From a virus (taxonomy: Duplodnaviria; Heunggongvirae; Uroviricota; Caudoviricetes): 64,000 bases of DNA. The first letter of the stretch is position 1. Each line of letters opens with the position of its first letter. The notes below the pieces were generated by a model. It saw only the letters and a program-made list of their open reading frames with translations, ran no database searches and was not told where the DNA came from. The translations under genes and the position numbers were made by a program. The stretch is taken from the IMG/VR virus record IMGVR_UViG_3300036766_001364, positions 1 through 64,000 of that record; one strand, given 5' to 3'. Of the stretch, positions 15,120 to 60,555 are shown in pieces.

Positions 15120-15290
15120 GACTCTCTCGTTTGGACGCGTTCATCTTGGCGTCTCGACCCAGCTCATGCTCGGCGTGGCTTGGTTCGACTCCTCGCTCGA
15201 GCTGAGCGTTGGCCCGTTCTTCGTGCTCGTGCTCTTCTGGAAAATAAAGAGCGACGGCGCCCACGGCGCTGTCGAGACAGCGGGCCCCAG

Positions 15291-46504: not shown

Positions 46505-47058
46505 GCCAGACCGAGCTGCCGACGACAGAGGGCGGTTTCAGGACGGTCGTGGCGGACCCCCCGTGGCCGTACAACGACAGGCTCCCCGGAAAGGGCCGAG
46601 GCGCAGCGAAGCACTACGGACTCATGGACGTCGACGCGATATCGGCGCTGCCGGTCGCGGACGTCGCCGCAGACGCCGCGCATCTCTACGTGTGGACGAC
46701 GAACGGTTTCCTCGGCGAAGCGATCGCGGTGTGTCGCGCTTGGGGCTTCGACCCGAAGACGGTGCTCACGTGGGTCAAGGTGTCGCGCGCCGGCAACGTG
46801 CGCATCGGCATGGGGAGGACCTTCAGGAACGCCACAGAACACGCGGTATTCGGCGTGCGCGGAAAGCTGCCGGCGCTGCGACGCGACGTCCCCAACGTCT
46901 TCTTCGCCGAGCGCACAGAACACTCGCGCAAGCCCGATCGGTTCTATGAGATAGTCCGCTCGATGTCCCCCGGACCGTACCTAGAACTGTTCGCGCGGCG
47001 ACACGAGCCCGACTTCGTCGCTTGGGGCGATGAAGCGCCGCGATCGGACCTCGGCTGA
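46501..47058 (+). CDS. MT-A70-like DNA N6-adenine (or N4-cytosine) methyltransferase
   Basis: VVADPPWPY catalytic motif with the downstream WTTNGFLGEA...WGF...LTWVK core; TTG at 46501; track ORF 46156 is extended upstream by GC bias. Confidence 0.75.
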   Translation: MSQTELPTTEGGFRTVVADPPWPYNDRLPGKGRGAAKHYGLMDVDAISALPVADVAADAAHLYVWTTNGFLGEAIAVCRAWGFDPKTVLTWVKVSRAGNVRIGMGRTFRNATEHAVFGVRGKLPALRRDVPNVFFAERTEHSRKPDRFYEIVRSMSPGPYLELFARRHEPDFVAWGDEAPRSDLG

Positions 47059-48017
47059 TGCAGTACGGGTCGGAAGTCGTCCTGATGGTCATCGAAGAAC
47101 TCGGCATCGCCGAGGTCCGTCCCGACGCATTCGGGTGGATGGACGCCTGCTGCCCGCTCCACGAAGAGAACAATCCGTCGTTCTCCATCAACCTCAACCA
47201 CGGCGGCTGGGTCTGCCGTTCGAGCTGCGGGACTGGCGGCCTGGAGTCGCTCGTCGCCGGGGCTACGGGAGAGCCGACCAGGGACGTGGCGCGACGCCTT
47301 CGCAACAGGATGCCGATGGACTCCTCGACCATCGAGCGACTCTTGGGCCGCACGGAAGGGGTCGAGATCGATTCTGCTGGGGAGCCGCTTTTCTACGAGA
47401 GGAACAGGGTCCCAAAATACATGGTCGACCGCGGGTTCGACGTCGACACTCTTAAGCGGTGGCAGGTCGGCTACGACGCAGAGAGCGATTCGGCTGTGAT
47501 GCCCGTGCGCTTAGACGGAAAGCTCGTCGGGCTGATCAGGCGCCTGGTCGATCCCGGAGACGGTCCAAAATACCTCTATACGCGCGGCATGGCGAAGGAT
47601 CAGGTCCTGTTCGGCGAATGGATGATCGGGCCGGACGTCAGAGACGTCATCGTCGTAGAGGGCCCGCTCGACGCGATGTGGCTCGACCAGCACGGGCTCC
47701 CCGCCGTGGCCATCCTGGGATCGGCGATGAGCGATCAGCAGGCCGCGATGCTCAAGAAGCGGTTCTGGGGGGCCGTCTTGGCGTTCGACGCAGATTACGC
47801 CGGAAGGCGCGCGACCAAGCTCGTGGCCGAGAAGCTCGGGCGGATGAGGCTGAGCGTGGCGGCGCTTCCAGACGGCCGAAAGGACGTCCAGGAATGTTCA
47901 GAAATTGAGCTGAAGACGATGTTTTCATCAGTCTCGGACGTGTGGTATGATCGCCTGCGCTCGAGACGCCGCGGTCGTCGAGAAGTGGATCGATGGGCCC
48001 GGCCAGCGGCGTCATGA
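47058..48017 (+). CDS. DnaG-like DNA primase (zinc-binding domain plus TOPRIM)
   Basis: CCPLHEENNPSFSIN...WVCRSSCG; TOPRIM VIVVEGPLDAMWL ... AFDADYAGRRA. Confidence 0.8.
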   Translation: MQYGSEVVLMVIEELGIAEVRPDAFGWMDACCPLHEENNPSFSINLNHGGWVCRSSCGTGGLESLVAGATGEPTRDVARRLRNRMPMDSSTIERLLGRTEGVEIDSAGEPLFYERNRVPKYMVDRGFDVDTLKRWQVGYDAESDSAVMPVRLDGKLVGLIRRLVDPGDGPKYLYTRGMAKDQVLFGEWMIGPDVRDVIVVEGPLDAMWLDQHGLPAVAILGSAMSDQQAAMLKKRFWGAVLAFDADYAGRRATKLVAEKLGRMRLSVAALPDGRKDVQECSEIELKTMFSSVSDVWYDRLRSRRRGRREVDRWARPAAS

Positions 48018-49600: not shown

Positions 49601-49946
49601 TGAGGCGGGCCGTTCTCTTACGGTCGAACTCGGCCTCACGATCCAGTGGGGCGAGATGAACTTCATAAAGCCGTGCATCACGATCTCGATCGACCCGGAC
49701 GGGGACGTCGAGGCTCAGTTGGACCGCGGGCTCGCCGCTGCTGACGTGGCGTTCGCGCGCATCGACGGCCACATCGAGAACGTGATCGCCGACCTCATCG
49801 CGCCGAACGCGGGGCAGCCGGGGTTCAACGAGCGCGTCGAGAAGATGGAGAAGGCGCTAGAGATCGCTCGGAAGAACATCAAGACGATCAAGGAAAAGAT
49901 CGACGAACTGATCGCCGCGCCGCAGCGCGGGGCCGGCGTGACGTGA
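49578..49946 (+). CDS. Hypothetical protein (122 aa)
   Basis: ORF in track. Confidence 0.35.
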   Translation: MRSSTLTDEAGRSLTVELGLTIQWGEMNFIKPCITISIDPDGDVEAQLDRGLAAADVAFARIDGHIENVIADLIAPNAGQPGFNERVEKMEKALEIARKNIKTIKEKIDELIAAPQRGAGVT

Positions 49947-51049
49947 CAGCGAAGGCCGATCGGAAGGCGCCGATCCAGCCCCGAGCCGCGGCCGGCCGGA
50001 GCGTCGACCTCATCGGACCGTCAGACGGGATGCTCACGCTCGACGACCTGGCCGACCTGCGGAAGTCTGTCGAGAAGGACCTCGGCGCGCGCATCTATTT
50101 CGGCAACGACGAGCGGTTGAAGCTCAGGAAGCTCACCCTCGGGATCGCGCCGATAGACAGGGTGCTCGCCGGCGGGTTCGCCTTCGATCGGATGTCGCTG
50201 ATCATCGGCGAGTTCTCGGCGGGCAAGACGCTGCTCGCGCTGTTCGCCCTCAAGGCGGCGATCGAGCTGGGCGTGTCGTGCGCGTACATCGACGGAGAGA
50301 AGACGTGGACCCCCGAATGGTCTGAGAGCCTCGGCGTTGACACGTCGAAGGTCCTCGTCGTGAGGCCCCGCTCGGGAGAGGACGCGTTCAACACGGCCCT
50401 GACGCTCGTGAAGCGGCGCGTCGGTGTGCTGATCATCGATTCTCTCGCGTCGCTCAGGCCGAAGACCGAGATCGAGGGGGACGAGAAAGAGATATTCGAC
50501 CGCCAGCACGTGGCCGTGCACGCTCGCCTCATCAACCGCGGGATCGAGGACCTCGAGCAGGTCAATGACGGGACGCTCATCATCGCGATCAACCAGCTCA
50601 GGTCTGGCGTCAACGCGTACGGCAACCCCGAGACGCTGCCGGGTGGAAAGGCGCAGGGGTTCTACGCGTGGCAGCTGATCCGCGTGAGGCGCACCGCGTT
50701 CATCGAGGAGGGCGTCGGGGCCAAGAAGAAGAAGATCGGCTACAAGCTGCTGATCAGGGTGGAGAAGAGCAAGCAGTCAGAGCCGTATCGCGAAGTCGAG
50801 GTGTCATACTACTACACCGGCCAGATCGACGAGCTCATGGGCATCATCGAGATGTGCATCGAGGCCGGCGTCATCAGGCAGGAGGGCACCTATTACTTCA
50901 TCGATGACGTGGTCGACGAGGCGACGGGAGAGCTGAGCCAGCTCAAGATCTGGGGTCGACCGCGCCTGCTCGAGGCGCTCAAGGCTTCAGAGGCGCTCCA
51001 GGAGCTCATCGTCAAGCGCGTCGAATCAATGCCATCGATCGAGATCTGA
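49943..51049 (+). CDS. RecA/UvsX/RadA-family recombinase ATPase
   Basis: Walker A LIIGEFSAGKTLLAL; Walker B VLIIDSLAS; overall RecA-fold layout. Confidence 0.75.
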   Translation: MTAKADRKAPIQPRAAAGRSVDLIGPSDGMLTLDDLADLRKSVEKDLGARIYFGNDERLKLRKLTLGIAPIDRVLAGGFAFDRMSLIIGEFSAGKTLLALFALKAAIELGVSCAYIDGEKTWTPEWSESLGVDTSKVLVVRPRSGEDAFNTALTLVKRRVGVLIIDSLASLRPKTEIEGDEKEIFDRQHVAVHARLINRGIEDLEQVNDGTLIIAINQLRSGVNAYGNPETLPGGKAQGFYAWQLIRVRRTAFIEEGVGAKKKKIGYKLLIRVEKSKQSEPYREVEVSYYYTGQIDELMGIIEMCIEAGVIRQEGTYYFIDDVVDEATGELSQLKIWGRPRLLEALKASEALQELIVKRVESMPSIEI

Positions 51050-51050
51050 G

Positions 51051-51425
51051 ATGCCGCAGTGGGATCGACCGGTCGAAGACACGACGGGGACGCGCGGTCA
51101 CCGCGCGCTCCACGACGCTATCGTGGCGGTGGGGTTCGACGTCGAGGACGAGCACGCCGTGGGCCGATATTCGATCGATTGTTACGTGCGCGAAGCGCAC
51201 CTCGGCTTTGAGTTTGACGGCCCCAAGCACGGCTGGAGGAGCGCCAAGAAGCGCGATTCAGAACGCGACCTGTGGATCCGTGAGAACGGCGGGATACCGA
51301 TCATGCGCGTGACCGATAGAGACGTCTCACGGCGGAGCGAGCTGGCCGGTAGGATCCGACAGTTCATCATCGACAATGAGCACGACATCGCCGACAGGAG
51401 GGCCCAAGGATGGGCGCTGGTATAG
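51051..51425 (+). CDS. DUF559 / Vsr-like (PD-(D/E)xK) endonuclease-domain protein
   Basis: YSIDCYVREAHLGFEFDGPKHGW...RDLWIRENGGIPIMRV. Confidence 0.55.
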   Translation: MPQWDRPVEDTTGTRGHRALHDAIVAVGFDVEDEHAVGRYSIDCYVREAHLGFEFDGPKHGWRSAKKRDSERDLWIRENGGIPIMRVTDRDVSRRSELAGRIRQFIIDNEHDIADRRAQGWALV

Positions 51426-51793
51426 CGGACAACCTCCAGCAGATCATGGACGCGCAGGGACGCCTCCAGGAGCGCATGCTCCCGAAGTGGGTCGCGATGG
51501 GCGAAGCGCTCGGCCTGGACTACATGTCGCTCTACCTCAAGGAGAACTGCGTCATGCTGGTTGACGAAGCGCTCGAGGCGATGCACGAGACGCCGTGGAA
51601 GTTCCACAAGAATGACTTCGGACGAGCGATGCTTGACGGCGAGCGCGACCGCTATCTCCATGAGACGATCGACTGCCTCCATTTCGTGGTGAACATGCTC
51701 ATCTTCGCGGGCGTCACGTCTGCCGACGAGGTCTTGGCGCTCTATATGGAAAAGAACGAAATCAATCACGATCGCCAGGATCGGGGGTACTGA
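51410..51793 (+). CDS. MazG-like / dimeric-dUTPase-like all-alpha NTP pyrophosphohydrolase (candidate dCTPase/dUTPase, like T4 gp56)
   Basis: Alpha-helical protein with VDEALEAMHETPWKFHK...LHETIDCLHF acidic motifs; assignment from memory. Confidence 0.45.
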   Translation: MGAGIADNLQQIMDAQGRLQERMLPKWVAMGEALGLDYMSLYLKENCVMLVDEALEAMHETPWKFHKNDFGRAMLDGERDRYLHETIDCLHFVVNMLIFAGVTSADEVLALYMEKNEINHDRQDRGY

Positions 51794-51833: not shown

Positions 51834-52241
51834 GTGTGGATGCTCTCGGGCATGAGCGGGGTGTCGCGCGAGACGGTGCACGAGAAGTTCCAGGCGTTTC
51901 TGCAAGAGATATATGACAACCCAGACTTCAGGAAGAAGAAGGACGGATCGAAGATCAATTTCACGACGTTCAGGGGGAACGTCCACGACGCGTTCAGGAT
52001 GATCGAGACGGTGATCTACGAGCTGGACACGGCGAACGGCGCCGTCCTGAAGGCCATGCACGAGGGATACTTCGGCGGCGGGAATCTGAAGTCGATCAGG
52101 GAGAAGGTCGTGAGACTGGTCCGCGAACGGAAGCGCATCCCGATGCGAGCGAAGCGCGAGGGGATCAGAGTCGACCAGAAGCACAGGGGCGCGATCATCA
52201 CCGATCCCGCCGCAGCCGAAGCTCGACCGAGAGCAAGCTGA
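51834..52241 (+). CDS. Hypothetical protein (135 aa)
   Basis: ORF in track. Confidence 0.4.
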   Translation: MWMLSGMSGVSRETVHEKFQAFLQEIYDNPDFRKKKDGSKINFTTFRGNVHDAFRMIETVIYELDTANGAVLKAMHEGYFGGGNLKSIREKVVRLVRERKRIPMRAKREGIRVDQKHRGAIITDPAAAEARPRAS

Positions 52242-52699
52242 TGGCGGCAGATGACATCAATCGGTTCGAGGGAGAGTTCGAGTTCCTGTCGAACTTTTCG
52301 ACGTGTCGGATCGAATTCCGTGGACGGACGTTTCCGACCGTGGAGCACGCGTACCAGTCGGCTAAGACCGACGAACACCACTGGATCGACGCGATCCGGC
52401 AGGCGCCGACGCCGGCCGAGGCCAAGAAGCTCGGGCGGAAATCTCCCGTCCGGTCCGACTGGGAAGAAGTGAAGGAGGGCGCGATGATCGGTCTCCTCCG
52501 CGAGAAGTTCACGAACGAAATGCTGAGGTCGCTCCTCGTCGCTACCGGAGATCGGAAGCTCATCGAGGGAAACTGGTGGGGCGACCGATACTGGGGAGTC
52601 CATCGCGGCGAGGGCCTGAACCGGCTCGGCGAACTGCTGATGCAGGTCAGGAAAGAGATCGCGTCCGTGTATCCTCAGCCTGAGGAGTTTGTGTACTAG
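52241..52699 (+). CDS. NADAR (YbiA-like, DUF1768) domain protein
   Basis: FEGEFEFLSNFS...FPTVEHAYQSAKT...KKLGRK...REKF...LLVATGDRKLIEGNWWGDRYWG. Confidence 0.8.
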   Translation: MAADDINRFEGEFEFLSNFSTCRIEFRGRTFPTVEHAYQSAKTDEHHWIDAIRQAPTPAEAKKLGRKSPVRSDWEEVKEGAMIGLLREKFTNEMLRSLLVATGDRKLIEGNWWGDRYWGVHRGEGLNRLGELLMQVRKEIASVYPQPEEFVY

Positions 52700-53815
52700 A
52701 TGAACATCGCGCTCTTCAGGATCATGAAAAGCTTCAACTCTGGCCGCCAGGCCCTCGGAATGGGCGGGGGCGAGGAGTTCTCGACGATCGCGCGCGAGAT
52801 GGCGCGACGCGGACACCGCGTGACGGTCTACTGTGAGGTAGCGCGCACGTCCCGCGACGACCTCCTCGAGTGGGGCCTCAGGCTGAAGCCCGACGCCGCG
52901 CGCCTCGACGACGACGAGAACTGCCTGATCGTGGACAACGGGGCCGGGATCAATCTCCTGTGGGCGCCGAACCAGCTCGTCTTACCGCGGAGACTCGCTC
53001 GGTTCTACCAGCTCGTGTCGACGTGCGACGTACCGATCTTCTACTCGCAGAGCGACCCGGCGGTCAGCATGGCGATCGTCACCGAGATCGACGACTGGCT
53101 CAAGCTCCCGTCGAAGGTGGGCGTGCTCGAGTATATCACCGTACCAGAACGGGCGCTCGACGGCAAGCAGGTCATCGTGATGTTCACGCAGCATTGGCCA
53201 GACGAGTTCGCCACCAAGATCAAGTCGCGCTACGTGCAGATGGCGAAACACGGCATGAAGTACGAGCACCTCGACCTCTCGCCGACGGCGCTCATCGGCC
53301 GCGAGCGCCAGAACCCAAAGCAAGACCCCGAATACGACATCGTCTACGTGGGGAATTCACGCCGCCGAAAACGGCTGATCCCATACGTCAATCGTCCCGA
53401 CGCGCATGTGTGGGGCCAGTGGTCAGACCGCGTCCGCGCAGATCAGGTGCCGCTCGCCACGATGCACGGGAAGGTCGGCGTGCACCTGGTCCCCGGTGTG
53501 TACCACGACGGGCGCATGACGTTCGTCGTGCGCGACGACCACGAGCTCGGGTTCAACGCGCGGCCGACGCGCATATTCGAGTCAGTGCAGGCGGGATGCC
53601 CGACGTGGGTCGACGCGAAGACGTTCCGGGAGGGGTCTGAGCCGTATTGGCCGTGGCTGATCGAGCACGCCGACATCGATGCGCGGCTCGACGAGATGCG
53701 CGATCCGAATCGGCGTCGGAGCCTGGTCGGCCTGCAGCAGGACTTGGTCTCGTCTGTCGACCCGTTGCAGCCGATCGACGATCTTGAGGCCATCCTCGAG
53801 AAGCACCTGCGGTGA
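52700..53815 (+). CDS. GT-B fold glycosyltransferase (GT4-like); candidate DNA (hydroxymethylcytosine) glycosyltransferase
   Basis: N-terminal MNIALFRIMKSF..GGGEEFSTIAREMARRGHRVTVYC; C-terminal RIFESVQAGCPTWV (E...G.P motif). Confidence 0.6.
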   Translation: MNIALFRIMKSFNSGRQALGMGGGEEFSTIAREMARRGHRVTVYCEVARTSRDDLLEWGLRLKPDAARLDDDENCLIVDNGAGINLLWAPNQLVLPRRLARFYQLVSTCDVPIFYSQSDPAVSMAIVTEIDDWLKLPSKVGVLEYITVPERALDGKQVIVMFTQHWPDEFATKIKSRYVQMAKHGMKYEHLDLSPTALIGRERQNPKQDPEYDIVYVGNSRRRKRLIPYVNRPDAHVWGQWSDRVRADQVPLATMHGKVGVHLVPGVYHDGRMTFVVRDDHELGFNARPTRIFESVQAGCPTWVDAKTFREGSEPYWPWLIEHADIDARLDEMRDPNRRRSLVGLQQDLVSSVDPLQPIDDLEAILEKHLR

Positions 53816-54243
53816 GGCCGCCGCGAAAGCAGGCGTATTTCGACACCGCAGCGGTGTGGGCGCAGCAGTCCACCTGCAATCGGAAGCACGTGGGCTGCGT
53901 CCTGGTCAGTCCAGATGGGTTCGTGATCGCGACCGGGTACAACGGGTCTGAGCGCGGCCGACCGCACTGCGTGGATGTCGGGTGCTACGTTGTCGAGGGG
54001 CACTGCGCGCGGACGATCCACGCCGAGAAGAACGCCCTGCTGCAGGCCGCTTTTCGGGGCGAATCGACGCGGGGGGCGGGCTGCTACAGCACCATGAAAC
54101 CGTGCTTCCGATGTCAGATGGAACTGCGCCAAGCCGGGGTCGCCGAGTTCTTCTGGGTCGAAGACTACGACGACTATCCCGACAACCCGGGCGACATGTT
54201 CGACCTCGACGGGACGATTCGCGAGAGCTCAGAAACAGGATAA
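53812..54243 (+). CDS. dCMP deaminase (cytidine/deoxycytidylate deaminase family)
   Basis: HAEKNALLQAA ... PCFRCQMEL zinc-binding motifs; GTG start overlapping the upstream stop. Confidence 0.85.
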   Translation: MRPPRKQAYFDTAAVWAQQSTCNRKHVGCVLVSPDGFVIATGYNGSERGRPHCVDVGCYVVEGHCARTIHAEKNALLQAAFRGESTRGAGCYSTMKPCFRCQMELRQAGVAEFFWVEDYDDYPDNPGDMFDLDGTIRESSETG

Positions 54244-54282: not shown

Positions 54283-55089
54283 ATGACAGCGCGATCGATG
54301 TCGATTGAGACTAGAGAGAAGATCAGCATTGCGACTCGGGGCCGTCCAAAGGGACCGATGCCGGTTGAGACGCGCGCGAAAATTGGTCAATCGCTCATTG
54401 GAAAGCCATGGGACACTGAGCGTAAACAGCGATATACGTCGCCGATGTTCGGTAAAACGCATACTGCCGAGTCGCGCGCCAAGATAAAGGCCGCCCGGGC
54501 ACTGCAGGTTATGACGCCGATGAGCGAAGACACACGAGAAAAATTAAGGGTCGCCAAGATCGGGTGGAATCCATCGGTTGAGACACGTAAAAAGATTGGT
54601 GATGCGCATCGCGGCAAGGCGGCCTGGAACAAGGGAATTGCATGCCCTGATGACGTGAAAGAGAAACTTCGTCAGGCGAATCTCGGCAAGAAGGCGTCTT
54701 TCGAGACTCGTGAAAAGCTCAGTCTGTTCTTCAGGAATGTGCCACGAACGCCAGAGTGGTGTCAGCGCATAGCTGAAGGTAAGCGACGGCACATTGTTGC
54801 TGGGACAGATTGCGCGGGCGCGTGCTGTCGCCCTAAATGGAGCAATACGCTCCTCGAACAGGCCCTCGCTAGATTGCTTGGCGATTTTCCGCACGTCGTT
54901 CAGTGGAAACGTTTTGGACATTTCACGGTCGACGCATATCTGCCTCATCCATATCATTTAGCGTTTGAAGCGGACGGCTGGCATCATCAGTTCAGGATAG
55001 AGCGCGATCTTGAGAGAGATCAATGGTTGCTTAAAAATCATCAGTTGATCGTCATTCGCCTGACCACTGATGATTTGAAAGGAATATAA
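54283..55089 (+). CDS. Free-standing homing-endonuclease-like protein: about 7 N-terminal NUMOD3 repeats plus a C-terminal DUF559/Vsr-like nuclease domain
   Basis: Repeats ETREKIS / ETRAKIG / ESRAKIK / DTREKLR / ETRKKIG / DVKEKLR / ETREKLS; C-terminal FGHFTVDAYLPHPYHLAFEADGWHH...RIERDLERDQWLL. Confidence 0.65.
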   Translation: MTARSMSIETREKISIATRGRPKGPMPVETRAKIGQSLIGKPWDTERKQRYTSPMFGKTHTAESRAKIKAARALQVMTPMSEDTREKLRVAKIGWNPSVETRKKIGDAHRGKAAWNKGIACPDDVKEKLRQANLGKKASFETREKLSLFFRNVPRTPEWCQRIAEGKRRHIVAGTDCAGACCRPKWSNTLLEQALARLLGDFPHVVQWKRFGHFTVDAYLPHPYHLAFEADGWHHQFRIERDLERDQWLLKNHQLIVIRLTTDDLKGI

Positions 55090-57315
55090 GTGAACTCTCA
55101 GCCTACGGCCATTGGGGTTCACATATACTCTGGCGCCTTTGTTTTAGGATTCCGTGAAAAATTCAAGGTGCTTGGAAAGTGGGAGGAGCTCGACGCTGGC
55201 GCTGAGACATTCAGAATAAACTTGGGTCACGAGATCCCACAGATCATTTCACGACAGGGATTAGACGGTTGGCCGATCGATCAGCATCGCGGCCGTGTGA
55301 ACGTCGTGTTCGCGAACCCGCCGTGCTTTTCGGCGGACACTGTCGTTCTGACTGAGAACGGTTGGGAGAAGATCGGCAAGCTCGTGAAATCCAGATCCAC
55401 CGATAGGGTCTGGGCTATCGGCAGCGACGGCGCGATGGGTTTTCATCGCATCGACGGCTGGCACGACAATCCGTATACAGGCGATCTGTACGCCGTGTCG
55501 TTGAAACACGGCAGGGGCGGAAGTTGGGGGAAGCGACCCGCGATCGCGACGTATAACCATCGCTTTTTGACGACGCGCGGGTGGGTTCAGGCCGCGTCGC
55601 TTCAGCAGGATGATCTGGTGGCCACCGGTGAGATCGCTCCCAATGCGCGGCAGCGCGAGCTCATCGACGGCATGATGCTTGGAGACGCCACTATCAAGGC
55701 ACGACAAGCGCAGTTTGGCACGTCACAGACGTGTGAGGAGCTCGTCGCCATGAAACGCGATGCTCTGGGCGATCTCGTGTGTGGCGACGGTGTCGAACCG
55801 CGAGGGATGGGCGGAGACGGATATTTTCGCCGGCCGCTTCATGGCTTTTATTGCAAGACGTTGAACTGGGCGAAGGTCGAACGCGAGCGCTGGTACGGGG
55901 GCGACGGTCGGAAGATCGTGCCTGTCGACGTCCGATTGACCGACCTCGCTCTCGCCGTTTGGTTTATGGACGATGGCCACGGGATAGGTCAGAGATGGTC
56001 ACATCGCCCCGAGTATAAAACTCGGTATCACGGTCCTTGGCTGTCGATGGCTACCTGCAGTTTCGATGCGACGAGCCTTGAGATACTCACGCGCGGTCTG
56101 GAAGCGATCGGCATAACGGCGGTTCAACACCGGCGAAAGAGCGGCTACGTGGATCTCGAGATAAGGGGCGAATCGGCGATCGCGTTCATCGATCGTATCG
56201 GGCGGTTCGTGCCGCCATCGATGCGCTACAAGCTGCCCGACTGGGCTCCGGGGTTTGAACAGGACAACTGGCAGCTTGGCGCGTCGATCACCGGTTGGGA
56301 CAGTCCCGTGGTCGTGAATCGCGGTCCGGCGCCAGACAGTTTTAGAGCGTACTGTCTGGACGTTCCCGAAGCCCAGAATTTCGTGACGCGCGGCGGCGTC
56401 GTCCATAACTGTGCTATCTGGTCGACGATGGGGTCGCGGCTGGGCGAGAACGACCCGCGGATCGTGTTCACCAAGAACTGCGCAGAACTCGCAAAGCGGC
56501 TCGAACCGGATTTCTTCGTCATGGAGTCCGTCTGTAGAGCGTGGAGCCCGACAGGCGGCAGGCCGACCTACACGCGCATGGCGCAGGAATTTGGCGCTCT
56601 CGGGTACGCGACGACTATATTCATGACGAACACCATGCTCCACGGAGCTCCGCAGTCGCGCGAACGCTTTCACTTCATCGCGCATCGATACGCCATAGAC
56701 CTCCACGGGCCAGACATGCGAACGTTCAGGCCGGCGACCGTCAGAGACGCGATCGGAGACCTCGAAGAGAGCGCGGTGTCGACGGTCTCAGGGAGGGATC
56801 CGACGCTCGCGAACCATGTCTATCCCGTGCTCTCTCCGAGCGAGATGAACGTCGTGAAGCGCATGTGCCCGGGCGAGGGCTGGGACGTCGGCATCGGACG
56901 CTGCATCGAGGACGGCGTCCCGTTCCGCAAGTCCAGGTTCCTGGCCGGACGCATGGAATACGATCGGCCGTCGCGCACGATGGTCGACATCTCGTGTGTG
57001 TTCCATCCCGCGCGCGATCGCATCATTACGATGCGCGAGGGGGCGAGGCTCTGCGGGTACCCAGACTGGTTCAGGTTCTCGGACTCTCCGTCGAACCGCA
57101 CGTATGGGGCAGAGCACGTCGAGCTCACCCAGGCGGCCCTGCCGTTCATGGGCAGGTTCCTCGGAGACGAATTCGCGCGCGCCCTAGACAGGGCCGACGG
57201 CGTCCGACCGACGGCGTCCGCAGACGACATCAAGGTGGTGGACCTGAGGCCGCTCACGGCGCGGTTCGGGCCGCGTTCGCTCAGAGAGCTGCAGACCGAC
57301 GACACGGTAGCATGA
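55090..57315 (+). CDS. DNA (cytosine-5)-methyltransferase-like protein interrupted by an intein (extein about 379 aa)
   Basis: Extein motif IV FANPP|C-AIWSTMGSRLGENDPR (compare GPPCQAFSxxGKxKGxxDxR), ESV (ENV-like), HGAPQSRERFHFIA (motif VIII QxRxR); N-terminal IYSGAFVLGF is a degenerate motif I. Confidence 0.75.
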   Translation: MNSQPTAIGVHIYSGAFVLGFREKFKVLGKWEELDAGAETFRINLGHEIPQIISRQGLDGWPIDQHRGRVNVVFANPPCFSADTVVLTENGWEKIGKLVKSRSTDRVWAIGSDGAMGFHRIDGWHDNPYTGDLYAVSLKHGRGGSWGKRPAIATYNHRFLTTRGWVQAASLQQDDLVATGEIAPNARQRELIDGMMLGDATIKARQAQFGTSQTCEELVAMKRDALGDLVCGDGVEPRGMGGDGYFRRPLHGFYCKTLNWAKVERERWYGGDGRKIVPVDVRLTDLALAVWFMDDGHGIGQRWSHRPEYKTRYHGPWLSMATCSFDATSLEILTRGLEAIGITAVQHRRKSGYVDLEIRGESAIAFIDRIGRFVPPSMRYKLPDWAPGFEQDNWQLGASITGWDSPVVVNRGPAPDSFRAYCLDVPEAQNFVTRGGVVHNCAIWSTMGSRLGENDPRIVFTKNCAELAKRLEPDFFVMESVCRAWSPTGGRPTYTRMAQEFGALGYATTIFMTNTMLHGAPQSRERFHFIAHRYAIDLHGPDMRTFRPATVRDAIGDLEESAVSTVSGRDPTLANHVYPVLSPSEMNVVKRMCPGEGWDVGIGRCIEDGVPFRKSRFLAGRMEYDRPSRTMVDISCVFHPARDRIITMREGARLCGYPDWFRFSDSPSNRTYGAEHVELTQAALPFMGRFLGDEFARALDRADGVRPTASADDIKVVDLRPLTARFGPRSLRELQTDDTVA
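55324..56409 (+). mobile_element. Intein (362 aa) with a LAGLIDADG homing-endonuclease domain, inserted directly before the PC-motif catalytic Cys
   Basis: Block A CFSADTVVLTENG, block B ATYNHRF, two LAGLIDADG blocks LIDGMMLGDATI and AVWFMDDGHGIG, C-terminal VVHN followed by Cys+1. Confidence 0.75.
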
Positions 57316-57319
57316 TCGC

Positions 57320-58267
57320 ATGACAGATCCCTTCGTCGTCATAGAGGGCATAGATGGAGCGGGGAAATCTACGCTCGCCAGGGCTTTCGTCGCTCAAGGG
57401 ATGGCGTACGGACACTTTGGTCCACCCGACAGACCCGCGTACCGATTCTACTCAGAGATCTTTGACCGCCACCCACACCAGGCGACCGTCGTCGATCGGA
57501 TGCACGTCGGGAGCTTCGTGTATGGCACGATCTTTCGCGGGATGGACGAACTGACGCCCTACGAGCACTGGCTCATCGAGGGCCGGCTCATGGGCCGGAA
57601 CAGCGTCATGGTCTACGCGTGTCCCCCGGCGGTCGCCTCGGATCGCGCGCTCGACCGCGGTCCGCGCGACGCCGTTGAGGAGCTCTATGAGGACGCGAGC
57701 CGACGAGACGACGTGCGCCGGCTCTACGAACAGTACATGAGCAGCATGTCTGCATTGCCGATCTTCGCTTACGATTTCACGGCCGCTCCAGACGCGATGC
57801 AGCGCACTGTGTCTGAGGTGATGGCGACGCTCGCGTATTTCTCTGATGCGCCCCGCCCCGTGGCGTCGGCAGACCCATTTGGGAATGCCTATTCTCCACA
57901 GTACTGTCTCGTCGGCGCTGCGCCGAGTCGCTACCTGCACGGGGCGCTCGTCGCCGCTCGAATACGGTTGAATGCCACGTGCATCGTTGGGCGGCTGCCG
58001 GACGATTATGAACCGAGCGAGTTCTGGCTGTCGACAGTCTTCGTCGCGCTTGGCAGGAAGGCGCACGCGCAGCTCGATGAGATGGGAATCAAGCACGTCG
58101 CCGTGCCCCATCCCGGCCTCGTCGAGGCGGCGCATTACGCCGACATCGTCCGCTATGCGAAGGCGATCAGGGGCGATACAGACTTCCCGCTCGATCGCCC
58201 GACGAAGCGCGAAGAGCTCGCAGCGACCGCGTCTAGGCTCAGGAAGATCGGGCTTGTTCTGCCGTGA
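57320..58267 (+). CDS. P-loop deoxynucleoside monophosphate kinase (thymidylate-kinase-like; T4 gp1 analogue) with a C-terminal extension of about 110 aa
   Basis: VVIEGIDGAGKSTLARAF Walker A of the Tmk/dNMP kinase type. Confidence 0.7.
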   Translation: MTDPFVVIEGIDGAGKSTLARAFVAQGMAYGHFGPPDRPAYRFYSEIFDRHPHQATVVDRMHVGSFVYGTIFRGMDELTPYEHWLIEGRLMGRNSVMVYACPPAVASDRALDRGPRDAVEELYEDASRRDDVRRLYEQYMSSMSALPIFAYDFTAAPDAMQRTVSEVMATLAYFSDAPRPVASADPFGNAYSPQYCLVGAAPSRYLHGALVAARIRLNATCIVGRLPDDYEPSEFWLSTVFVALGRKAHAQLDEMGIKHVAVPHPGLVEAAHYADIVRYAKAIRGDTDFPLDRPTKREELAATASRLRKIGLVLP

Positions 58268-59109
58268 AGGTCTACAGGCTCGATGCCCTTGGCACGGGAT
58301 ACGCAGACCTCCTCAGAGACGTCGAGCAGAGCGGCGACATCGTGAGGCCGCGCGGGATGGAGGTCCGCGAGGTCAGGCCGCTCGTGCTCGAGATCTTAGA
58401 TCCGACGCGATCGCTCGTGAAGCGTCCGGGGATCAACCGCGCGCTGATGTGGATGGAGATCGCGCAGCTCATCGCGGGTGAATGGGACGAGGGGCTCATG
58501 CGCGCGATGTCCGCGCAGGCAGCCGTACTCATGTCCGCTCAGGGCGCGTACGGGCCGCGCACGGCGATGCAGCTCGAGCAGGCCGTCCTCGAGCTGGTCC
58601 ACGACGCGGACTCGCGTCGTGCGACTGTGATCGTGGCGCGCGAGAGCGACCTGTTGAAAGCGCGGGCCGGCGCGAATGAACAGCCGTGCACGCTGTCTTG
58701 GCAAGTTTTCGCGAGAGGCGGCAGGCTCGAGATGGTGGTCAGCATGCGCTCGTGGGACCTCGTCTGGGGGCTCGCAAACGACGTGCCGATGTTCACCATG
58801 ATCCAGCGATGTCTCGCGTGGGCGCTCGGCCTCGAAGTCGGGACGTACACCCATGTCGCGGGCAGCGGCCACGTCTATAGCCGCCACTACGGGCTCTGGG
58901 AGCGGGTGTCGCCGACGACCGAGCGGCTCGCGCTCGTGATTCCACGCGATCTGCCAAGCGGCTTCATGGCGCAGGACAGGTGGGTCGGCGTCGTCGCTGG
59001 AGCGATATCGGCTCTCAGGCTCGCGAGGGTCGGTAAGCTTGACGAGCTGCCCGCGCATTGGAGCCACGTCGCTCCCCTCTGGAAGAAGAAGCTGGAGAAT
59101 CATGGCTGA
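58264..59109 (+). CDS. ThyA-fold pyrimidine hydroxymethylase/methylase, predicted deoxycytidylate hydroxymethylase (T4 gp42-like)
   Basis: DSRRATVIVAR; catalytic QPCTLSWQ; MRSWDLVWGLANDVPMF aligns with E. coli [17 protein letters not shown] so that ThyA Asn177 becomes Asp, the cytosine-specificity determinant of gp42; LEVGTYTHVAGSGHVYSRHY. Confidence 0.75.
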   Translation: MKVYRLDALGTGYADLLRDVEQSGDIVRPRGMEVREVRPLVLEILDPTRSLVKRPGINRALMWMEIAQLIAGEWDEGLMRAMSAQAAVLMSAQGAYGPRTAMQLEQAVLELVHDADSRRATVIVARESDLLKARAGANEQPCTLSWQVFARGGRLEMVVSMRSWDLVWGLANDVPMFTMIQRCLAWALGLEVGTYTHVAGSGHVYSRHYGLWERVSPTTERLALVIPRDLPSGFMAQDRWVGVVAGAISALRLARVGKLDELPAHWSHVAPLWKKKLENHG

Positions 59110-60004
59110 CGCCGTGGCCGATCGCCGCATCGGGCTCGACAGGCTCCTCAGGCAGCTGAAGTCCAATGACTGGGTGTCGCGTGCGCTCGACGGGATCGGC
59201 GTCCAGCCGGAAGACGCGTGGGTCCCTCCCAAGCTCGAGATAAACCCGTCGGGGACGGGAGGGCCGTGCGCTCTCGACATCCAGTTCGGCATGCTCGGGC
59301 ACAGGACGCCGATCGCGCCCAAGAATCGACGGCGCATGGACAACGGGACGATGGCCCACCGGAGGTGGTCTGAGTACTTCGAACAGACCAATCTGCTCGT
59401 GGTCGCGTCCAAGAGGCTCAAGCAGGCGGGCGTCTGGAGCGGAGAGATCGATGTCATCGTGAAGAGCCCGGCGACGGGGTCGTTCCATGTCGGCGAGATC
59501 AAGACGACCAACTCGAACAGTTTCGGTCGACTCCCGCGGCAGGTCGCCGACCTCGACGCGATGGCCCTCGCGATGGCGGGGCACAACAAGGCCTACCTCT
59601 TCCAGCTTGCGCAGTACGTCGTCAAGTTCAAGCAGGCGTACTCAGCGCTGTCAGACGAAGCGTTCTTCCTGTTCGAGAACACCGATGACCAGGACTATCG
59701 CGTCCTGTGGCTGCGGATCGGCGCGAACCTCAAGCGCGACGCGTTCCTCAACGGCGAACTCGCGCGACAGGCCACGATCGATGGGCGAGTCATCGAGAGG
59801 CCGTTCGCCAAGGGATCGAGCACGTGCAAGCGTTGCTATCGCAGGAAGGTCTGCGACGACTATCACGCCGGGATCGGGGACGTCGTCCAGCGCGTCGAAG
59901 AAGCGATGTTCAAGGCGGGACAGCTTCCTCCGCCGAGCACGGTATGGACCGAGGGGTTCGACCGCGATCAGTCTGACGAATTCGACGAGGAGATCGCGTG
60001 GTGA
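59101..60004 (+). CDS. PD-(D/E)xK nuclease (RecB/Cas4-like) with a C-terminal Cys cluster
   Basis: IDVIVKSPATGSFHVGEIKTTN (D...E.K); C-terminal CKRCYRRKVCDDYH; ATG at 59101 after GGAG. Confidence 0.55.
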
Positions 60005-60555
60005 CGACAGATTTTGAACTCATCGACACCCAGGTCGAGGAGGGGACTCAGCAGGCTCCCGAGGACGGCATGACGGTGGGAGAGCTGTTCGAGAACGGTC
60101 GCCGCTTCATGCGCGGTCTGAACATGCCGGCGATGCGCAAACCCGTGGGTCACGAGAGTGAGTATGATTTCCCCACCGACGTGACCGTGTTGAGGTCTCC
60201 TCAGCTCGGAGCGTTGCAATTGCGATTGGCGGCGTGGTACACCTATTCGCTGTCGATCATCGGCCGTGAGGAGTCTGAACTCGGGGTCTTCAAAGAGATC
60301 TTCGACGTGAAGGTCGGAGCGGCGATGGCGGTGGAGAAGACGAGGCACGACAAGCTGGTCGCGAAGGAGATCCTGCGATCGATCTGCATCCAGAACGTAC
60401 TGGAGCTCAGGAAGCTGCACAAGGCCATCCTCGCGCGTCAGCACCGTGTGGACCTCATCAAGGCTCAGGCGAACGTCTATCACGAGCAGCTCGTGAGGCT
60501 TTCGCGTGAGCAGAGCAGGCGGGAATCCGAGGCCTCAGTCGGACGCGCGTACTGA
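59998..60555 (+). CDS. Hypothetical protein (185 aa), coiled-coil-like C-terminus
   Basis: ORF in track. Confidence 0.4.
   Translation: MVTTDFELIDTQVEEGTQQAPEDGMTVGELFENGRRFMRGLNMPAMRKPVGHESEYDFPTDVTVLRSPQLGALQLRLAAWYTYSLSIIGREESELGVFKEIFDVKVGAAMAVEKTRHDKLVAKEILRSICIQNVLELRKLHKAILARQHRVDLIKAQANVYHEQLVRLSREQSRRESEASVGRAY

What the first reader, a model, noticed from the sequence alone, without database searches (positions are those of the whole stretch)
58264..59109. ThyA-fold enzyme carrying the cytosine-specificity Asp (gp42 signature)
The segment VSMRSWDLVWGLANDVPMFTMIQRCLAWALGLEVGTYTHVAGSGHVYSRHY aligns residue-for-residue (same length between RS and LEVG) with E. coli ThyA [36 protein letters not shown]...GGDTHLYSNH. 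This places Asp where ThyA has Asn177, the single residue that switches dUMP to dCMP specificity in T4 dCMP hydroxymethylase (Asp179). The catalytic Cys is present (PCT). The local motifs (MRS.D, ND, HVYSRH) resemble my recollection of gp42 more than ThyA.
Basis: partly seen in the sequence, partly recalled or inferred. Interest (0 to 1): 0.7.

Follow-up and report, generated by a model that had tools for sequence, protein, structure and literature searches.

The report
Phage dCMP hydroxymethylase, MilA-like clade
This gene in an uncultivated high-GC phage encodes a thymidylate-synthase-fold enzyme whose active-site residues predict that it converts dCMP to 5-hydroxymethyl-dCMP for modified phage DNA, a well-known kind of phage enzyme in a new lineage.

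Summary
ORF 58264-59109 (+, 281 aa) has the thymidylate-synthase fold, with catalytic Cys142. Asp173 sits exactly where E. coli ThyA has Asn177 and T4 gp42 has Asp179, and it is invariant in 115 homologs.

Published residue codes take the prediction further:
- Glu139, three residues before the Cys (ThyA Leu143, T4 Asp145), predicts a hydroxymethyl product rather than methyl.
- Asp165 is retained (ThyA Asp169), so it is not a flavin-type 5-hydroxy-dCMP synthase.
- Arg118 and Ser163 predict a deoxyribo substrate, not ribo.

The closest characterised relative is MilA, the Streptomyces CMP hydroxymethylase, not gp42.

The gene is translationally coupled to an upstream kinase. That kinase has a nucleotide-kinase-like fold and a dTMP-kinase-like P-loop. 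The gene lies in a phage replication module with a gp56-family NTP pyrophosphatase, a dCMP deaminase and a putative glycosyltransferase. Relatives carry variable tailoring cassettes at the same place.

Best reading: a pre-replicative 5-hydroxymethyl-dCMP synthase, probably followed by glycosylation of the DNA. This is a new member of a known kind. A methyl product (Xp12-type) cannot be excluded without an assay.

The parts
58264..59109 (+). ThyA-fold enzyme, 281 aa; predicted dCMP 5-hydroxymethyltransferase (5hmdCMP synthase) of a MilA-like clade
   Evidence: Pfam PF00303 at E 1.8e-12. Best PDB hits are MilA 5jnh/5b6d at E ~1e-15. The AF2 model has pLDDT 97.2. Foldseek top hit is MilA at TMq 0.82. 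hhalign against MilA gives E 5.9e-35.
58780..58782 (+). Asp173 codon (GAC): equivalent of ThyA Asn177, T4 gp42 Asp179 and MilA Asp186; the cytosine-specificity residue
   Evidence: Alignments; invariant in 115/115 homologs. Its role is documented in PMC5175136, PMC6400193 and PMC13326640.
58687..58689 (+). Cys142 codon: catalytic nucleophile (ThyA Cys146). It is followed by Thr143 where ThyA has His147.
   Evidence: Cys 115/115; Thr 114/115. Position 147 is associated with cytosine modification in PMC8670742.
58678..58680 (+). Glu139 codon: the Cys-3 position (ThyA Leu143, T4 Asp145, MilA Asp); published marker for a hydroxymethyl rather than a methyl product
   Evidence: hhalign and HMMER alignments. 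The family has D or E in 91/115 and N in 14/115. The rule is stated in PMC6400193 and PMC13326640.
58756..58758 (+). Asp165 codon: equivalent of ThyA Asp169. This position is Asn in flavin-dependent 5-hydroxy-dCMP synthases.
   Evidence: Invariant Asp in 115/115. HY126 AfhB has Asn here. The rule is in PMC13326640 section 28.
57320..58267 (+). 315-aa protein: an N-terminal P-loop kinase domain with a nucleotide-kinase-like fold (predicted 5hmdCMP kinase) plus a C-terminal degenerate UDG-like domain. Its stop overlaps the ThyA-like start (GTGA).
   Evidence: PHROG 761 thymidylate kinase at E 2.5e-12. Pfam Thymidylate_kin P-loop match, below the Pfam cutoff. Foldseek top hits are YorR and thymidylate kinases. 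Homolog P0125 has a weak Pfam UDG hit, E 5e-4. Synteny is shown; the overlap.
51410..51793 (+). 127-aa all-alpha NTP pyrophosphatase (dUTPase_2 family, as T4 gp56 dCTPase/dUTPase); predicted to turn dCTP into dCMP
   Evidence: Pfam PF08761 at E 2e-13. T4 gp56 hits the same Pfam family and shares 47% identity over 43 aa. Conserved in relatives.
53812..54243 (+). 143-aa dCMP deaminase
   Evidence: Pfam PF00383 at E 5e-19. PHROG 174 at E 1.9e-40. It lies directly upstream of the kinase/ThyA-like pair in relatives L001, L008 and L009.
52700..53815 (+). 371-aa putative GT-B glycosyltransferase; candidate DNA 5hmC glycosyltransferase (weak evidence)
   Evidence: Sub-threshold Pfam Glyco_trans_4_4 hit, E 4.5e-4. 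Weak hhalign match to the C-terminal domain of T4 beta-glucosyltransferase, E 4.6e-4 and probability 33%, with the Arg/Glu of RxxE invariant. Its homolog in L047/L048 is followed by a sugar oxidoreductase and a DegT aminotransferase.
55090..57315 (+). C5-cytosine DNA methyltransferase homolog interrupted by a LAGLIDADG intein (nt 55324-56409) at the catalytic Pro-Cys motif. Accessory gene; role in the pathway unknown.
   Evidence: Pfam PF00145, PF03161 and PF14890. Intein-less orthologs align to residues 1-79 plus 441-734.

Best explanation
ORF 58264-59109 encodes a folate-dependent deoxycytidylate 5-hydroxymethyltransferase, a 5hmdCMP synthase that works like T4 gp42.

Proposed mechanism, inferred by homology:
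1. Cys142 attacks C6 of dCMP.
2. Asp173 binds N3/N4 of cytosine and protonates N3, which selects dCMP over dUMP.
3. The one-carbon unit of 5,10-methylene-THF is added at C5.
4. After THF leaves, a water activated by Glu139 hydrates the exocyclic methylene. Hydride transfer does not occur, so the products are 5hmdCMP and THF.

Proposed pathway, inferred from context:
1. The dUTPase_2-family pyrophosphatase (51410-51793) supplies dCMP from dCTP.
2. The translationally coupled P-loop kinase (57320-58267) makes 5hmdCDP.
3. Host NDP kinase makes the triphosphate.
4. The phage family-A polymerase incorporates 5hmC.
5. The putative glycosyltransferase (52700-53815) probably decorates the hydroxymethyl group on DNA.
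6. The dCMP deaminase feeds dUMP to thymidylate synthesis, as in T4.

Shown: fold, residue identities, conservation and synteny. Inferred: substrate, product and every pathway step.
For: Fold and nearest relatives:
- PF00303. The model has pLDDT 97.2.
- MilA is the best match by sequence, profile and structure.
- BLASTP ranking: MilA 4e-21, then SP10 dUMP hydroxymethylase 2e-20, HY126 3e-15, gp42 1e-11, ThyA 3e-11, and the PaMx74 5mC-type enzyme 2e-7. The two nearest characterised relatives are hydroxymethylases.

Residue code, from PMC5175136, PMC6400193 and PMC13326640:
- Asp173 at the N177 position, 115/115.
- Glu139 at the L143 position; D or E in 91/115.
- Asp165 retained, 115/115.
- Arg118 and Ser163, the deoxy type, in 115/115 and 114/115.
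- Thr143 at the H147 position.

Features of true thymidylate synthase that are missing:
- No Trp80/Trp83 equivalents and no TS-type C-terminal tail; a MilA-like helical extension takes its place.
- All NCBIfam thymidylate-synthase equivalogs score far below cutoff, for example 48.8 against 174.55 bits.

Genomic context:
- GTGA and ATGGCTGA overlaps with the neighbouring genes.
- The core of pyrophosphatase, deaminase, kinase and ThyA-like gene is conserved in relatives.
- Relatives with D or E at Cys-3 carry tailoring genes that need a 5-hydroxymethyl handle: GTs, a sugar aminotransferase, aGPT-Pplase3/amino acid:DNA transferase, an HMUDK-like kinase and a phosphatase.
- Two relatives with Asn at Cys-3 have none of these.
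- No DHFR, ThyX or second ThyA homolog was found in the 64 kb.
Against: - No activity data exist. The product prediction rests on a residue code derived from few characterised enzymes.
- The T4 'Ser94-x-Tyr96' part of the hydroxymethylase signature is only half met: the query has Gly94-Ala-Tyr96, and the family has G 69, T 26, S 18.
- The pyrophosphatase, deaminase and Asp-type TS context is shared with 5mC phages such as Xp12 and PaMx74.
- The glycosyltransferase assignment is weak.
- The closest relatives (L001, L008, L009) lack a GT at this position.
- A C5 DNA methyltransferase next door is hard to reconcile with complete replacement of C.
- Only 64 kb of a ~172-kb genome was inspected, so a DHFR or a true TS could lie elsewhere.
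Confidence: 0.75

Rival explanations
1. It is a dCMP methyltransferase (5-methyl-dCMP synthase) of the Xp12/PaMx74 type. Hydride transfer from THF would give 5mdCMP and DHF. The neighbouring deaminase would convert part of the 5-methyl-dC nucleotide pool to thymidine nucleotides.
For: - Asp at the N177 position is shared with 5mdCMP synthases.
- Co-location of a deaminase and an NTP pyrophosphatase with Asp-type TS homologs is typical of 5mC phages, and five of seven such metagenomic enzymes made 5mdCMP (bioRxiv 10.1101/2024.12.05.627091).
- PaMx74 has the same trio of genes.
- 14 of 115 family members carry Asn at Cys-3, as PaMx74 does.
- No second TS was found in the window.
Against: - The query has Glu at Cys-3, the hydroxymethylase state. 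PaMx74 has Asn, and T4 D145N is inactive for hydroxymethylation.
- It lacks the Trp80 equivalent and the TS-type C-terminal tail that PaMx74 retains.
- PaMx74 is its most distant reference by BLASTP, at 2e-7.
- No DHFR was found, whereas PaMx74 has frd beside thyA.
- A glycosyltransferase and, in relatives, other enzymes that use a hydroxymethyl group sit in the same island.
Confidence: 0.12
2. It is a flavin-dependent 5-hydroxy-dCMP synthase, like RB69 gp48, DLP3 gp80 and HY126 AfhB. It would make 5hodCMP as the acceptor for O-glycosylation.
For: - It has Asp at the N177 position and Glu at the L143 position, as 5hodCMP synthases do.
- HY126 AfhB is a moderately good structural and sequence match: TMq 0.63-0.70 and BLASTP 3e-15.
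- A glycosyltransferase lies nearby.
Against: - The diagnostic D169N substitution is absent. Asp165 is invariant in 115/115 family members, whereas HY126 AfhB has Asn.
- The nearest homolog is the folate-dependent hydroxymethylase MilA.
Confidence: 0.04
3. It is an ordinary thymidylate synthase (dUMP to dTMP) that happens to be divergent, or a dUMP hydroxymethylase.
For: - It is the only TS-family gene in the window.
- A dCMP deaminase that would supply dUMP is adjacent.
- Sources annotate relatives as 'thymidylate synthase'.
- SP10 dUMP hydroxymethylase is the second-best BLASTP reference.
Against: - Asp173 replaces the Asn that ThyA and the dUMP hydroxymethylases (SPO1 per PMC5175136; SP10 in the alignment here) carry.
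- Thr replaces His147, Glu replaces Leu143, and there is no Trp80/83 and no C-terminal tail.
- All NCBIfam TS equivalogs score far below cutoff.
Confidence: 0.04
4. It is a CMP (ribonucleotide) hydroxymethylase like MilA and BcmA, feeding a nucleoside natural-product-like or RNA-directed pathway.
For: MilA is the closest characterised homolog over the full length, including the C-terminal helices.
Against: - MilA's ribo determinants Lys133 and Ala176 are Arg118 and Ser163 here, the state that the A176S/K133R double mutant shows to favour dCMP.
- The gene sits in a phage DNA replication and nucleotide module, coupled to a kinase with a dTMP-kinase-like P-loop.
Confidence: 0.02

Closest known systems
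MilA, CMP 5-hydroxymethylase of Streptomyces rimofaciens (PDB 5JNH/5B6D; mildiomycin pathway)
   Same: - It is the best match by sequence (E ~1e-15, residues 10-274), by profile (hhalign 5.9e-35) and by fold (TMq 0.82).
- Both have the Asp at the cytosine-specificity position, an acidic residue at Cys-3 and the (G/T)AYGPR motif.
- Both have a C-terminal helical extension ending in LPA(H/Y)W, and both lack the TS C-terminal tail.
   Different: - MilA has Lys133 and Ala176, which favour ribo-CMP. The query has Arg118 and Ser163, the deoxy type.
- MilA belongs to a bacterial antibiotic gene cluster. This gene is in a phage replication module.
- Sequence identity is only ~27-32%.
T4 gp42 deoxycytidylate hydroxymethylase (PDB 1B5E, 6A9B)
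   Same: - The predicted chemistry and substrate are the same.
- Matching residues, T4/query: Cys148/Cys142, Asp179/Asp173, Asp145/Glu139, Asp171/Asp165, Arg123-124/Arg118-119, Ser169/Ser163, His216-x-Tyr218/His203-x-Tyr205.
- The pathway partners are analogous: a gp56-family pyrophosphatase, a dNMP kinase, a dCMP deaminase and a glycosyltransferase.
   Different: - The relationship is distant: BLASTP 1e-11 over 117 aa and TMq 0.54. The family is no closer to gp42 than to ThyA at profile level.
- The query has Gly94 where T4 has Ser94.
- gp42 lacks the long C-terminal helical extension.
Xp12/PaMx74-type dCMP methyltransferase (5mdCMP synthase)
   Same: Both have Asp at the N177 position, and both have a neighbouring dCMP-deaminase-family gene and an NTP pyrophosphatase.
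   Different: - PaMx74 has Asn at Cys-3, keeps Trp80 and a TS-like C-terminus, and has DHFR next door.
- It is the most distant reference to the query.
RB69 gp48 / DLP3 gp80 / HY126 AfhB 5-hydroxy-dCMP synthases (PDB 9IQU/9IQC)
   Same: All share the ThyA fold, Asp at the N177 position, Glu at the L143 position, and coupling to a dNMP kinase and DNA glycosyltransferases.
   Different: These enzymes carry Asn at the ThyA-169 position and use a flavin and O2. The query and all 114 aligned homologs keep Asp.
Bacillus phage SP10/SPO1 dUMP hydroxymethylase
   Same: It is the second-best BLASTP reference (28% over 236 aa). It has an acidic residue at Cys-3 and makes a hydroxymethyl product.
   Different: It has Asn at the specificity position and uses dUMP. 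The query has Asp.

Membership tests
Thymidylate synthase superfamily (ThyA fold, PF00303) | Significant profile match and ThyA fold, with the catalytic Cys, the Arg-Ser-x-Asp loop, Tyr94, Glu58 and the His-x-Tyr equivalents | tested here: met
   PF00303 scores 47.4 bits against a cutoff of 24.3. The AF2 model has pLDDT 97.2 and Foldseek probability is 1.0 to many TS-family structures. C142, R162, S163, D165, Y96, E65, H203 and Y205 are conserved.
Bona fide thymidylate synthase ThyA (dUMP to dTMP) | Asn at position 177 (uracil recognition) | tested here: not met
   Asp173 occupies this position, in 115/115 family members.
Bona fide thymidylate synthase ThyA (dUMP to dTMP) | Hydrophobic Leu143, Trp80/Trp83 and a C-terminal tail that seal the site for hydride transfer; His147 | tested here: not met
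   The query has Glu139 and Thr143, no Trp in the aligned helix, and a MilA-like helical C-terminus in place of the tail. The rule is in PMC6400193.
Bona fide thymidylate synthase ThyA (dUMP to dTMP) | Score above the NCBIfam equivalog cutoff | tested here: not met
   The best scores are 48.8 bits against a cutoff of 174.55 (TIGR03283) and 44.4 against 327 (NF002497).
dCMP hydroxymethylase / 5hmdCMP synthase (T4 gp42 type) | Asp at the ThyA-177 position (T4 Asp179) together with the catalytic Cys | tested here: met
   Asp173 and Cys142.
dCMP hydroxymethylase / 5hmdCMP synthase (T4 gp42 type) | Acidic residue three positions before the catalytic Cys (T4 Asp145; Glu in some phages) | tested here: met
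   Glu139 in the E-Q-P-C motif. The family has D or E in 91/115.
dCMP hydroxymethylase / 5hmdCMP synthase (T4 gp42 type) | Ser/Thr-x-Tyr motif (T4 Ser94, Tyr96) that positions the proton-abstracting water | tested here: inconclusive
   Tyr96 is invariant, but the Ser position is Gly94 in the query. The family has G 69, T 26, S 18.
dCMP hydroxymethylase / 5hmdCMP synthase (T4 gp42 type) | Deoxyribose-type Ser (T4 Ser169) and Arg (T4 Arg123) | tested here: met
   Ser163 in 114/115 and Arg118 in 115/115.
dCMP hydroxymethylase / 5hmdCMP synthase (T4 gp42 type) | Catalyses dCMP + CH2-THF + H2O to 5hmdCMP + THF | not testable with these tools
   This needs an enzyme assay or in-vivo LC-MS.
MilA/BcmA CMP hydroxymethylases | Lys133 and Ala176, which confer preference for ribo-CMP | tested here: not met
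   The query has Arg118 and Ser163 at these positions.
Flavin-dependent 5-hydroxy-dCMP synthases (RB69 gp48 type) | Asn at the ThyA Asp169 position (D169N) | tested here: not met
   Asp165 is invariant in 115/115. HY126 AfhB shows Asn in the same column.
5-methyl-dCMP synthases (Xp12/PaMx74 type) | Asp at position 177, a non-acidic residue at Cys-3, and retained TS-like cofactor-sealing elements. DHFR is often adjacent. | tested here: not met
   Asp is present, but Cys-3 is Glu. There is no Trp80 and no TS tail, and no DHFR was detected in the 64 kb. The signature for this family is itself poorly defined.

The most novel reading that the evidence does not exclude
The gene may anchor a modular cytosine-hypermodification island in a previously uncharacterised lineage of high-GC phages.

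The proposed core is a MilA-like 5hmdCMP synthase plus a fused dNMP-kinase/UDG-like protein. Between the gp56-like pyrophosphatase and this core, different relatives insert different tailoring sets:
- a GT-B enzyme in this phage;
- a GT with a sugar oxidoreductase and an aminotransferase;
- two GTs with an amino acid:DNA transferase;
- an HMUDK-like kinase with a phosphatase;
- an inositol-phosphate synthase with a HAD hydrolase.

An atypical C5-methyltransferase homolog often accompanies these sets. Its motifs read PCA for PCQ, ESV for ENV and TQA for GNS.

If this is right, these phages make several cytosine adducts not yet described. This phage would carry a glycosylated 5hmC with an unknown sugar. 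MilA-type antibiotic enzymes would descend from such phage dCMP hydroxymethylases.
Probability: 0.3. Interest if true: 0.65.

Novelty: new member of a known kind. Interest (0 to 1): 0.4.

Why it matters
A predicted 5hmdCMP synthase implies that this uncultivated ~172-kb high-GC phage replaces cytosine with 5-hydroxymethylcytosine, and probably glycosylates it. That would affect how its DNA behaves towards restriction enzymes, CRISPR nucleases, sequencing chemistry and assembly.

The enzyme belongs to a clade that links the Streptomyces antibiotic enzyme MilA to phage DNA metabolism. This gives a natural 'deoxy-type' counterpart to the engineered MilA A176S/K133R mutant.

The variable tailoring cassettes found at the same position in relatives are a practical place to look for new DNA-modifying enzymes: glycosyltransferases, amino acid:DNA transferases and kinases.

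The core observation, however, follows rules that are already published and already used to annotate metaviromes. It extends known biology and does not overturn it.

Tried and rejected
- Megablast of 6 kb around the gene against 50,697 phage records found nothing. tblastn of the ORF and of PolA finds only relatives at 36% identity or less, so no cultured relative or host can be named.
- Exact-sequence look-ups of P0001 and P0007 found no contig. The phage was recovered through the kinase protein instead.
- I looked for a second ThyA, a ThyX or a DHFR in the window. This used Pfam scans of about 50 ORFs and tblastn with ThyA, gp42, and PaMx74 ThyA and frd. None was found. The rest of the genome could not be checked.
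- The glycosyltransferase has no PDB hit by sequence or by profile and no PHROG or NCBIfam hit. It has only sub-threshold Pfam GT4 hits and a weak hhalign hit to T4 beta-GT. Its role stays tentative.
- The kinase has only weak PDB sequence hits. Fold search supports a nucleotide/nucleoside-kinase-like fold for the N-terminal domain but does not resolve the C-terminal domain. The UDG-like reading rests on motifs and on one sub-threshold Pfam hit in a homolog.
- I considered that the C5-methyltransferase is an obligate partner. I rejected this as a general rule because the closest relatives (L001, L008, L009) lack it at this position.
- The antisense ORFs overlapping the gene (for example 58396-59589) were dismissed as high-GC artefacts: their codon-position GC pattern is wrong, and the plus-strand product is the one with conserved homologs.
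Full report
**1. The observation**

The window is 63-65% GC and almost entirely coded on the plus strand. ORF 58264-59109 (GTG start, TGA stop, 281 aa, GC3 0.84) is real. It matches Pfam Thymidylat_synt (PF00303) at E 1.8e-12. Exactly the same 281-aa product is called on two independent assemblies of the same phage, ENA ERZ27247924 and Logan SRR9617649.

Four kinds of alignment put the residues in the same places:
- MAFFT with E. coli ThyA, T4 gp42 and SP10 dUMP hydroxymethylase fetched from annotated records.
- HMMER against PDB sequences.
- Profile-profile hhalign of a 115-sequence family alignment against gp42 and against ThyA.

In all of them Cys142 pairs with ThyA Cys146 and gp42 Cys148. 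Asp173 pairs with ThyA Asn177 and gp42 Asp179. There is no gap across the MRS...LEVG stretch. Asp173 and Cys142 are invariant in all 115 homologs.

**2. What the protein is**

By sequence, the best solved relative is MilA, the CMP 5-hydroxymethylase of Streptomyces rimofaciens, not gp42. MilA matches at E ~1e-15 over residues 10-274. ThyA proteins match at ~1e-7 and gp42 at 1e-6.

An AlphaFold2 model built on the 115-sequence alignment is very confident (pLDDT 97.2, pTM 0.94). Foldseek against the PDB gives these TM-scores normalised to the query:

| Target | TMq |
|---|---|
| MilA | 0.79-0.82 |
| Thymidylate synthases | ~0.6-0.67 |
| HY126 dCMP hydroxylase AfhB | 0.63-0.70 |
| T4 dCH | 0.54 |

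Profile-profile scores rank the same way:

| Reference | hhalign E-value |
|---|---|
| MilA | 5.9e-35 |
| PaMx74 ThyA | 2.2e-21 |
| E. coli ThyA | 4.5e-21 |
| T4 gp42 | 1.5e-19 |

The query shares with MilA a C-terminal helical extension (LPAHW / LPAYW). It lacks the C-terminal tail of true thymidylate synthases.

**3. Residue code**

Three papers give tested determinants.

- Zhao et al. 2016 (PMC5175136). Asp at this position marks the cytosine users (MilA, BcmA, T4 CH) and Asn marks the uracil users. MilA's Lys133 and Ala176 confer ribo preference, enzymes that use deoxy substrates have Arg and Ser, and the A176S/K133R mutant reverses the preference to dCMP.
- Park et al. 2019 (PMC6400193). 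An Asp or Glu three residues before the catalytic Cys (T4 Asp145; Leu143 in E. coli TS) activates the water that hydrates the exocyclic methylene. D145N makes no 5hmdCMP. TS seals the site with Trp83, Leu143 and its C-terminal tail.
- Lee et al. 2026 (PMC13326640). They restate the N177D and L143D/E rules. They also show that a D169N substitution marks flavin-dependent 5-hydroxy-dCMP synthases (RB69 gp48, DLP3 gp80, others).

The query reads as follows:

| Query residue | Reference position | Family conservation | Meaning |
|---|---|---|---|
| Asp173 | ThyA Asn177 | 115/115 | cytosine substrate |
| Glu139 | ThyA Leu143 (Cys-3) | D or E in 91/115, N in 14 | hydroxymethyl product |
| Asp165 | ThyA Asp169 | 115/115 | not a 5-hydroxy-dCMP synthase |
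| Arg118 | MilA Lys133 | 115/115 | deoxy substrate |
| Ser163 | MilA Ala176 | 114/115 | deoxy substrate |
| Thr143 | ThyA His147 | 114/115 | position flagged by MetaGPA |

The only mismatch with the T4 signature is Gly94 where T4 has Ser94. Tyr96 is invariant.

For comparison, the ThyA homolog of the 5mC phage PaMx74 has Asn at Cys-3. It keeps the Trp80 equivalent and a TS-like C-terminus, and it sits next to a DHFR gene. HY126 AfhB has Asn at the 169 position.

All NCBIfam thymidylate-synthase equivalog models score far below their cutoffs.

**4. Context**

The gene lies at the end of a phage replication and nucleotide-metabolism module, just before the terminase. The genes are, in order:

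| Coordinates | Product |
|---|---|
| 41173-42369 | UDG-superfamily protein |
| 43067-44743 | family-A DNA polymerase |
| 45029-46504 | DnaB helicase |
| 47058-48017 | primase |
| 49943-51049 | RecA |
| 51051-51425 | Vsr-like protein |
| 51410-51793 | dUTPase_2-family NTP pyrophosphatase |
| 52241-52699 | NADAR |
| 52700-53815 | putative glycosyltransferase |
| 53812-54243 | dCMP deaminase |
| 54283-55089 | NUMOD3 homing endonuclease |
| 55090-57315 | C5 DNA methyltransferase split by a LAGLIDADG intein |
| 57320-58267 | 315-aa P-loop kinase |
| 58264-59109 | the ThyA-like gene |
| 59102-60004 | Cas4-like nuclease |

The kinase, the ThyA-like gene and the nuclease overlap by GTGA and ATGGCTGA, which suggests translational coupling.

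T4 gp56 dCTPase/dUTPase belongs to the same Pfam family as the 127-aa pyrophosphatase and shares a 47%-identical C-terminal block with it.

The N-terminal domain of the kinase has a P-loop nucleotide/nucleoside-kinase-like fold. The top Foldseek hits are YorR and thymidylate kinases, followed by other P-loop kinases such as shikimate kinases. Its dTMP-kinase sequence matches cover only the P-loop and fall below the curated cutoffs. Its C-terminal domain carries degenerate UDG-like motifs. The support is weak: one sub-threshold Pfam UDG hit in a homolog.

No second TS homolog, no ThyX and no DHFR was found in the 64 kb.

**5. Relatives**

The family has at least 128 metagenomic members and no named or characterised one.

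- The closest relatives (50-58% identity; loci L001, L008, L009) keep the core order pyrophosphatase, dCMP deaminase, kinase, ThyA-like gene.
- Other relatives with D or E at Cys-3 carry extra genes between the pyrophosphatase and the kinase/ThyA-like pair:
  - a homolog of the window's GT, followed by a GFO/IDH/MocA oxidoreductase and a DegT aminotransferase (L047/L048);
  - two GTs plus an aGPT-Pplase3/amino acid:DNA transferase (L049);
  - an ADDT-like protein (weak hit), a phosphatase and an HMUDK-like kinase (faint hit) (L054);
  - an inositol-1-phosphate synthase, a HAD hydrolase and a phosphatase (L053).
- These cassettes usually come with an intein-less ortholog of the methyltransferase.
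- Two relatives with Asn at Cys-3 have no such cassette.

The sample is small. Even so, the pattern fits the residue code, because enzymes that need a 5-hydroxymethyl handle accompany the D/E-type enzymes. The association of GT-B enzymes with thymidylate-synthase homologs in pre-replicative pathways has been reported (bioRxiv 10.1101/2023.12.21.572611).

The window's GT is itself poorly supported. It has sub-threshold Pfam GT4 hits and no PDB hit. There is a weak hhalign match to the C-terminal domain of T4 beta-glucosyltransferase, in which the Arg and Glu of an RxxE motif are invariant.

**6. Mechanism**

The best-supported reading is a folate-dependent dCMP 5-hydroxymethyltransferase acting before replication, as in T-even phages.

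1. The pyrophosphatase turns dCTP into dCMP.
2. The enzyme converts dCMP to 5hmdCMP. Cys142 is the nucleophile, Asp173 recognises the base and protonates N3, and Glu139 activates the water.
3. The kinase makes 5hmdCDP, and host NDK makes the triphosphate.
4. The phage polymerase incorporates the modified base.
5. The GT probably glycosylates the DNA.

Fold, residues, conservation and synteny are shown. Substrate, product and every pathway step are inferred. I put confidence at about 0.75.

**7. Rivals**

- An Xp12-type 5-methyl-dCMP synthase is the main rival. It has the same Asp and the same deaminase and pyrophosphatase neighbours. Glu139, the missing TS sealing elements, the absence of DHFR, the tailoring genes, and the fact that PaMx74 is the most distant reference all argue against it.
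- A 5-hydroxy-dCMP synthase is excluded by the published D169N criterion.
- A true thymidylate synthase or a dUMP hydroxymethylase is excluded by Asp173 and the failed equivalog scores.
- A ribo-CMP hydroxymethylase is unlikely, given Arg118, Ser163 and the phage DNA context.

**8. Novelty and verdict**

Identifying dCMP-specific TS homologs in metaviromes by the N177D, L143D/E and D169N code is established practice. This is a new member of a known kind, in a lineage with no cultured relative: PolA is at most 36% identical to any isolate, and there is no DNA match.

Three things are mildly new:
- its membership of a MilA-like clade of deoxy type;
- the kinase/UDG-like fusion partner;
- the variable tailoring island in relatives.

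Noticed in passing
window 55090-57315 (+); intein at about 55324-56409: A C5-cytosine DNA methyltransferase homolog is interrupted by a LAGLIDADG intein. The intein sits exactly at the catalytic Pro-Cys of motif IV (..VFANPP|CFSADTVV ... VVHN|CAIWS). Intein-less orthologs in L047-L049, L053 and L054 align to the two exteins.

The clade has unusual motifs: PCA for PCQ, ESV for ENV and TQA(V/A) for GNS(V). It often sits directly upstream of the kinase/ThyA-like pair. Its role in a phage predicted to replace C is unexplained.
   Followed up: partly
window 57320-58267 (+), residues ~180-315: The kinase next to the ThyA-like gene carries a C-terminal domain with degenerate uracil-DNA-glycosylase-like motifs (VGAAPS ... 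VPHPG). More distant homologs keep an LPFVS..GGCSAWL segment, and one gives a sub-threshold Pfam UDG hit (E 5e-4). A kinase/UDG-like fusion of this kind is not something I know to be described.
   Followed up: partly
loci L047/L048, L049, L053, L054 (relatives), between the dUTPase_2 gene and the kinase/ThyA-like pair: A variable 'tailoring island' occupies this position in relatives. The sets seen are: a GT with a GFO/IDH/MocA oxidoreductase and a DegT aminotransferase; two GTs with an aGPT-Pplase3/amino acid:DNA transferase; an ADDT-like protein with a dual-specificity phosphatase and an HMUDK-like kinase; and an inositol-1-phosphate synthase with a HAD hydrolase and a phosphatase. This suggests diverse cytosine hypermodifications that have not been characterised.
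   Followed up: partly
window 54283-55089 (+): A NUMOD3/DUF559-type homing endonuclease lies immediately upstream of the intein-containing methyltransferase. Two selfish elements are therefore side by side in the nucleotide-metabolism module. Both are absent from the closest relatives at this position.
   Followed up: no
window 52241-52699 (+) and 51051-51425 (+): A NADAR-domain protein (E 5.6e-26) and a Vsr-like MTES_1575/DUF559 endonuclease-fold protein are conserved next to RecA and the pyrophosphatase in relatives. From my own recollection, not checked here, NADAR proteins have been linked to reversal of DNA ADP-ribosylation, which would make this a possible counter-defence gene.
   Followed up: no
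window 41173-42369 (+) and 43067-44743 (+): A 398-aa UDG-superfamily protein (PF03167, E 8e-15) lies upstream of a 558-aa family-A polymerase gene whose Pfam DNA_pol_A match starts at residue 185. In relative L049, UDG, the 3'-5' exonuclease and the polymerase are fused in one 868-aa product. The polymerase therefore appears to be split in this phage.
   Followed up: no
window 15180-16532 (+), 25305-26186 (+), 30439-31431 (+), 8065-9222 (+): Other annotated genes in the window are an RtcB RNA ligase (E 6e-87), an RNase HII, an SPFH/Band-7 protein and an AAA ATPase with DUF5925. The large terminase subunit starts at about 62511. Most other ORFs have no Pfam match.
   Followed up: no
window 59102-60004 (+) and 59998-60555 (+): A Cas4-like PD-(D/E)XK nuclease with a C-terminal Cys cluster, followed by a 185-aa protein with no family match, lies directly downstream of the ThyA-like gene. 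The nuclease is translationally coupled to it. The pair is conserved in relatives and is probably a recombination pair, not part of the modification pathway.
   Followed up: no
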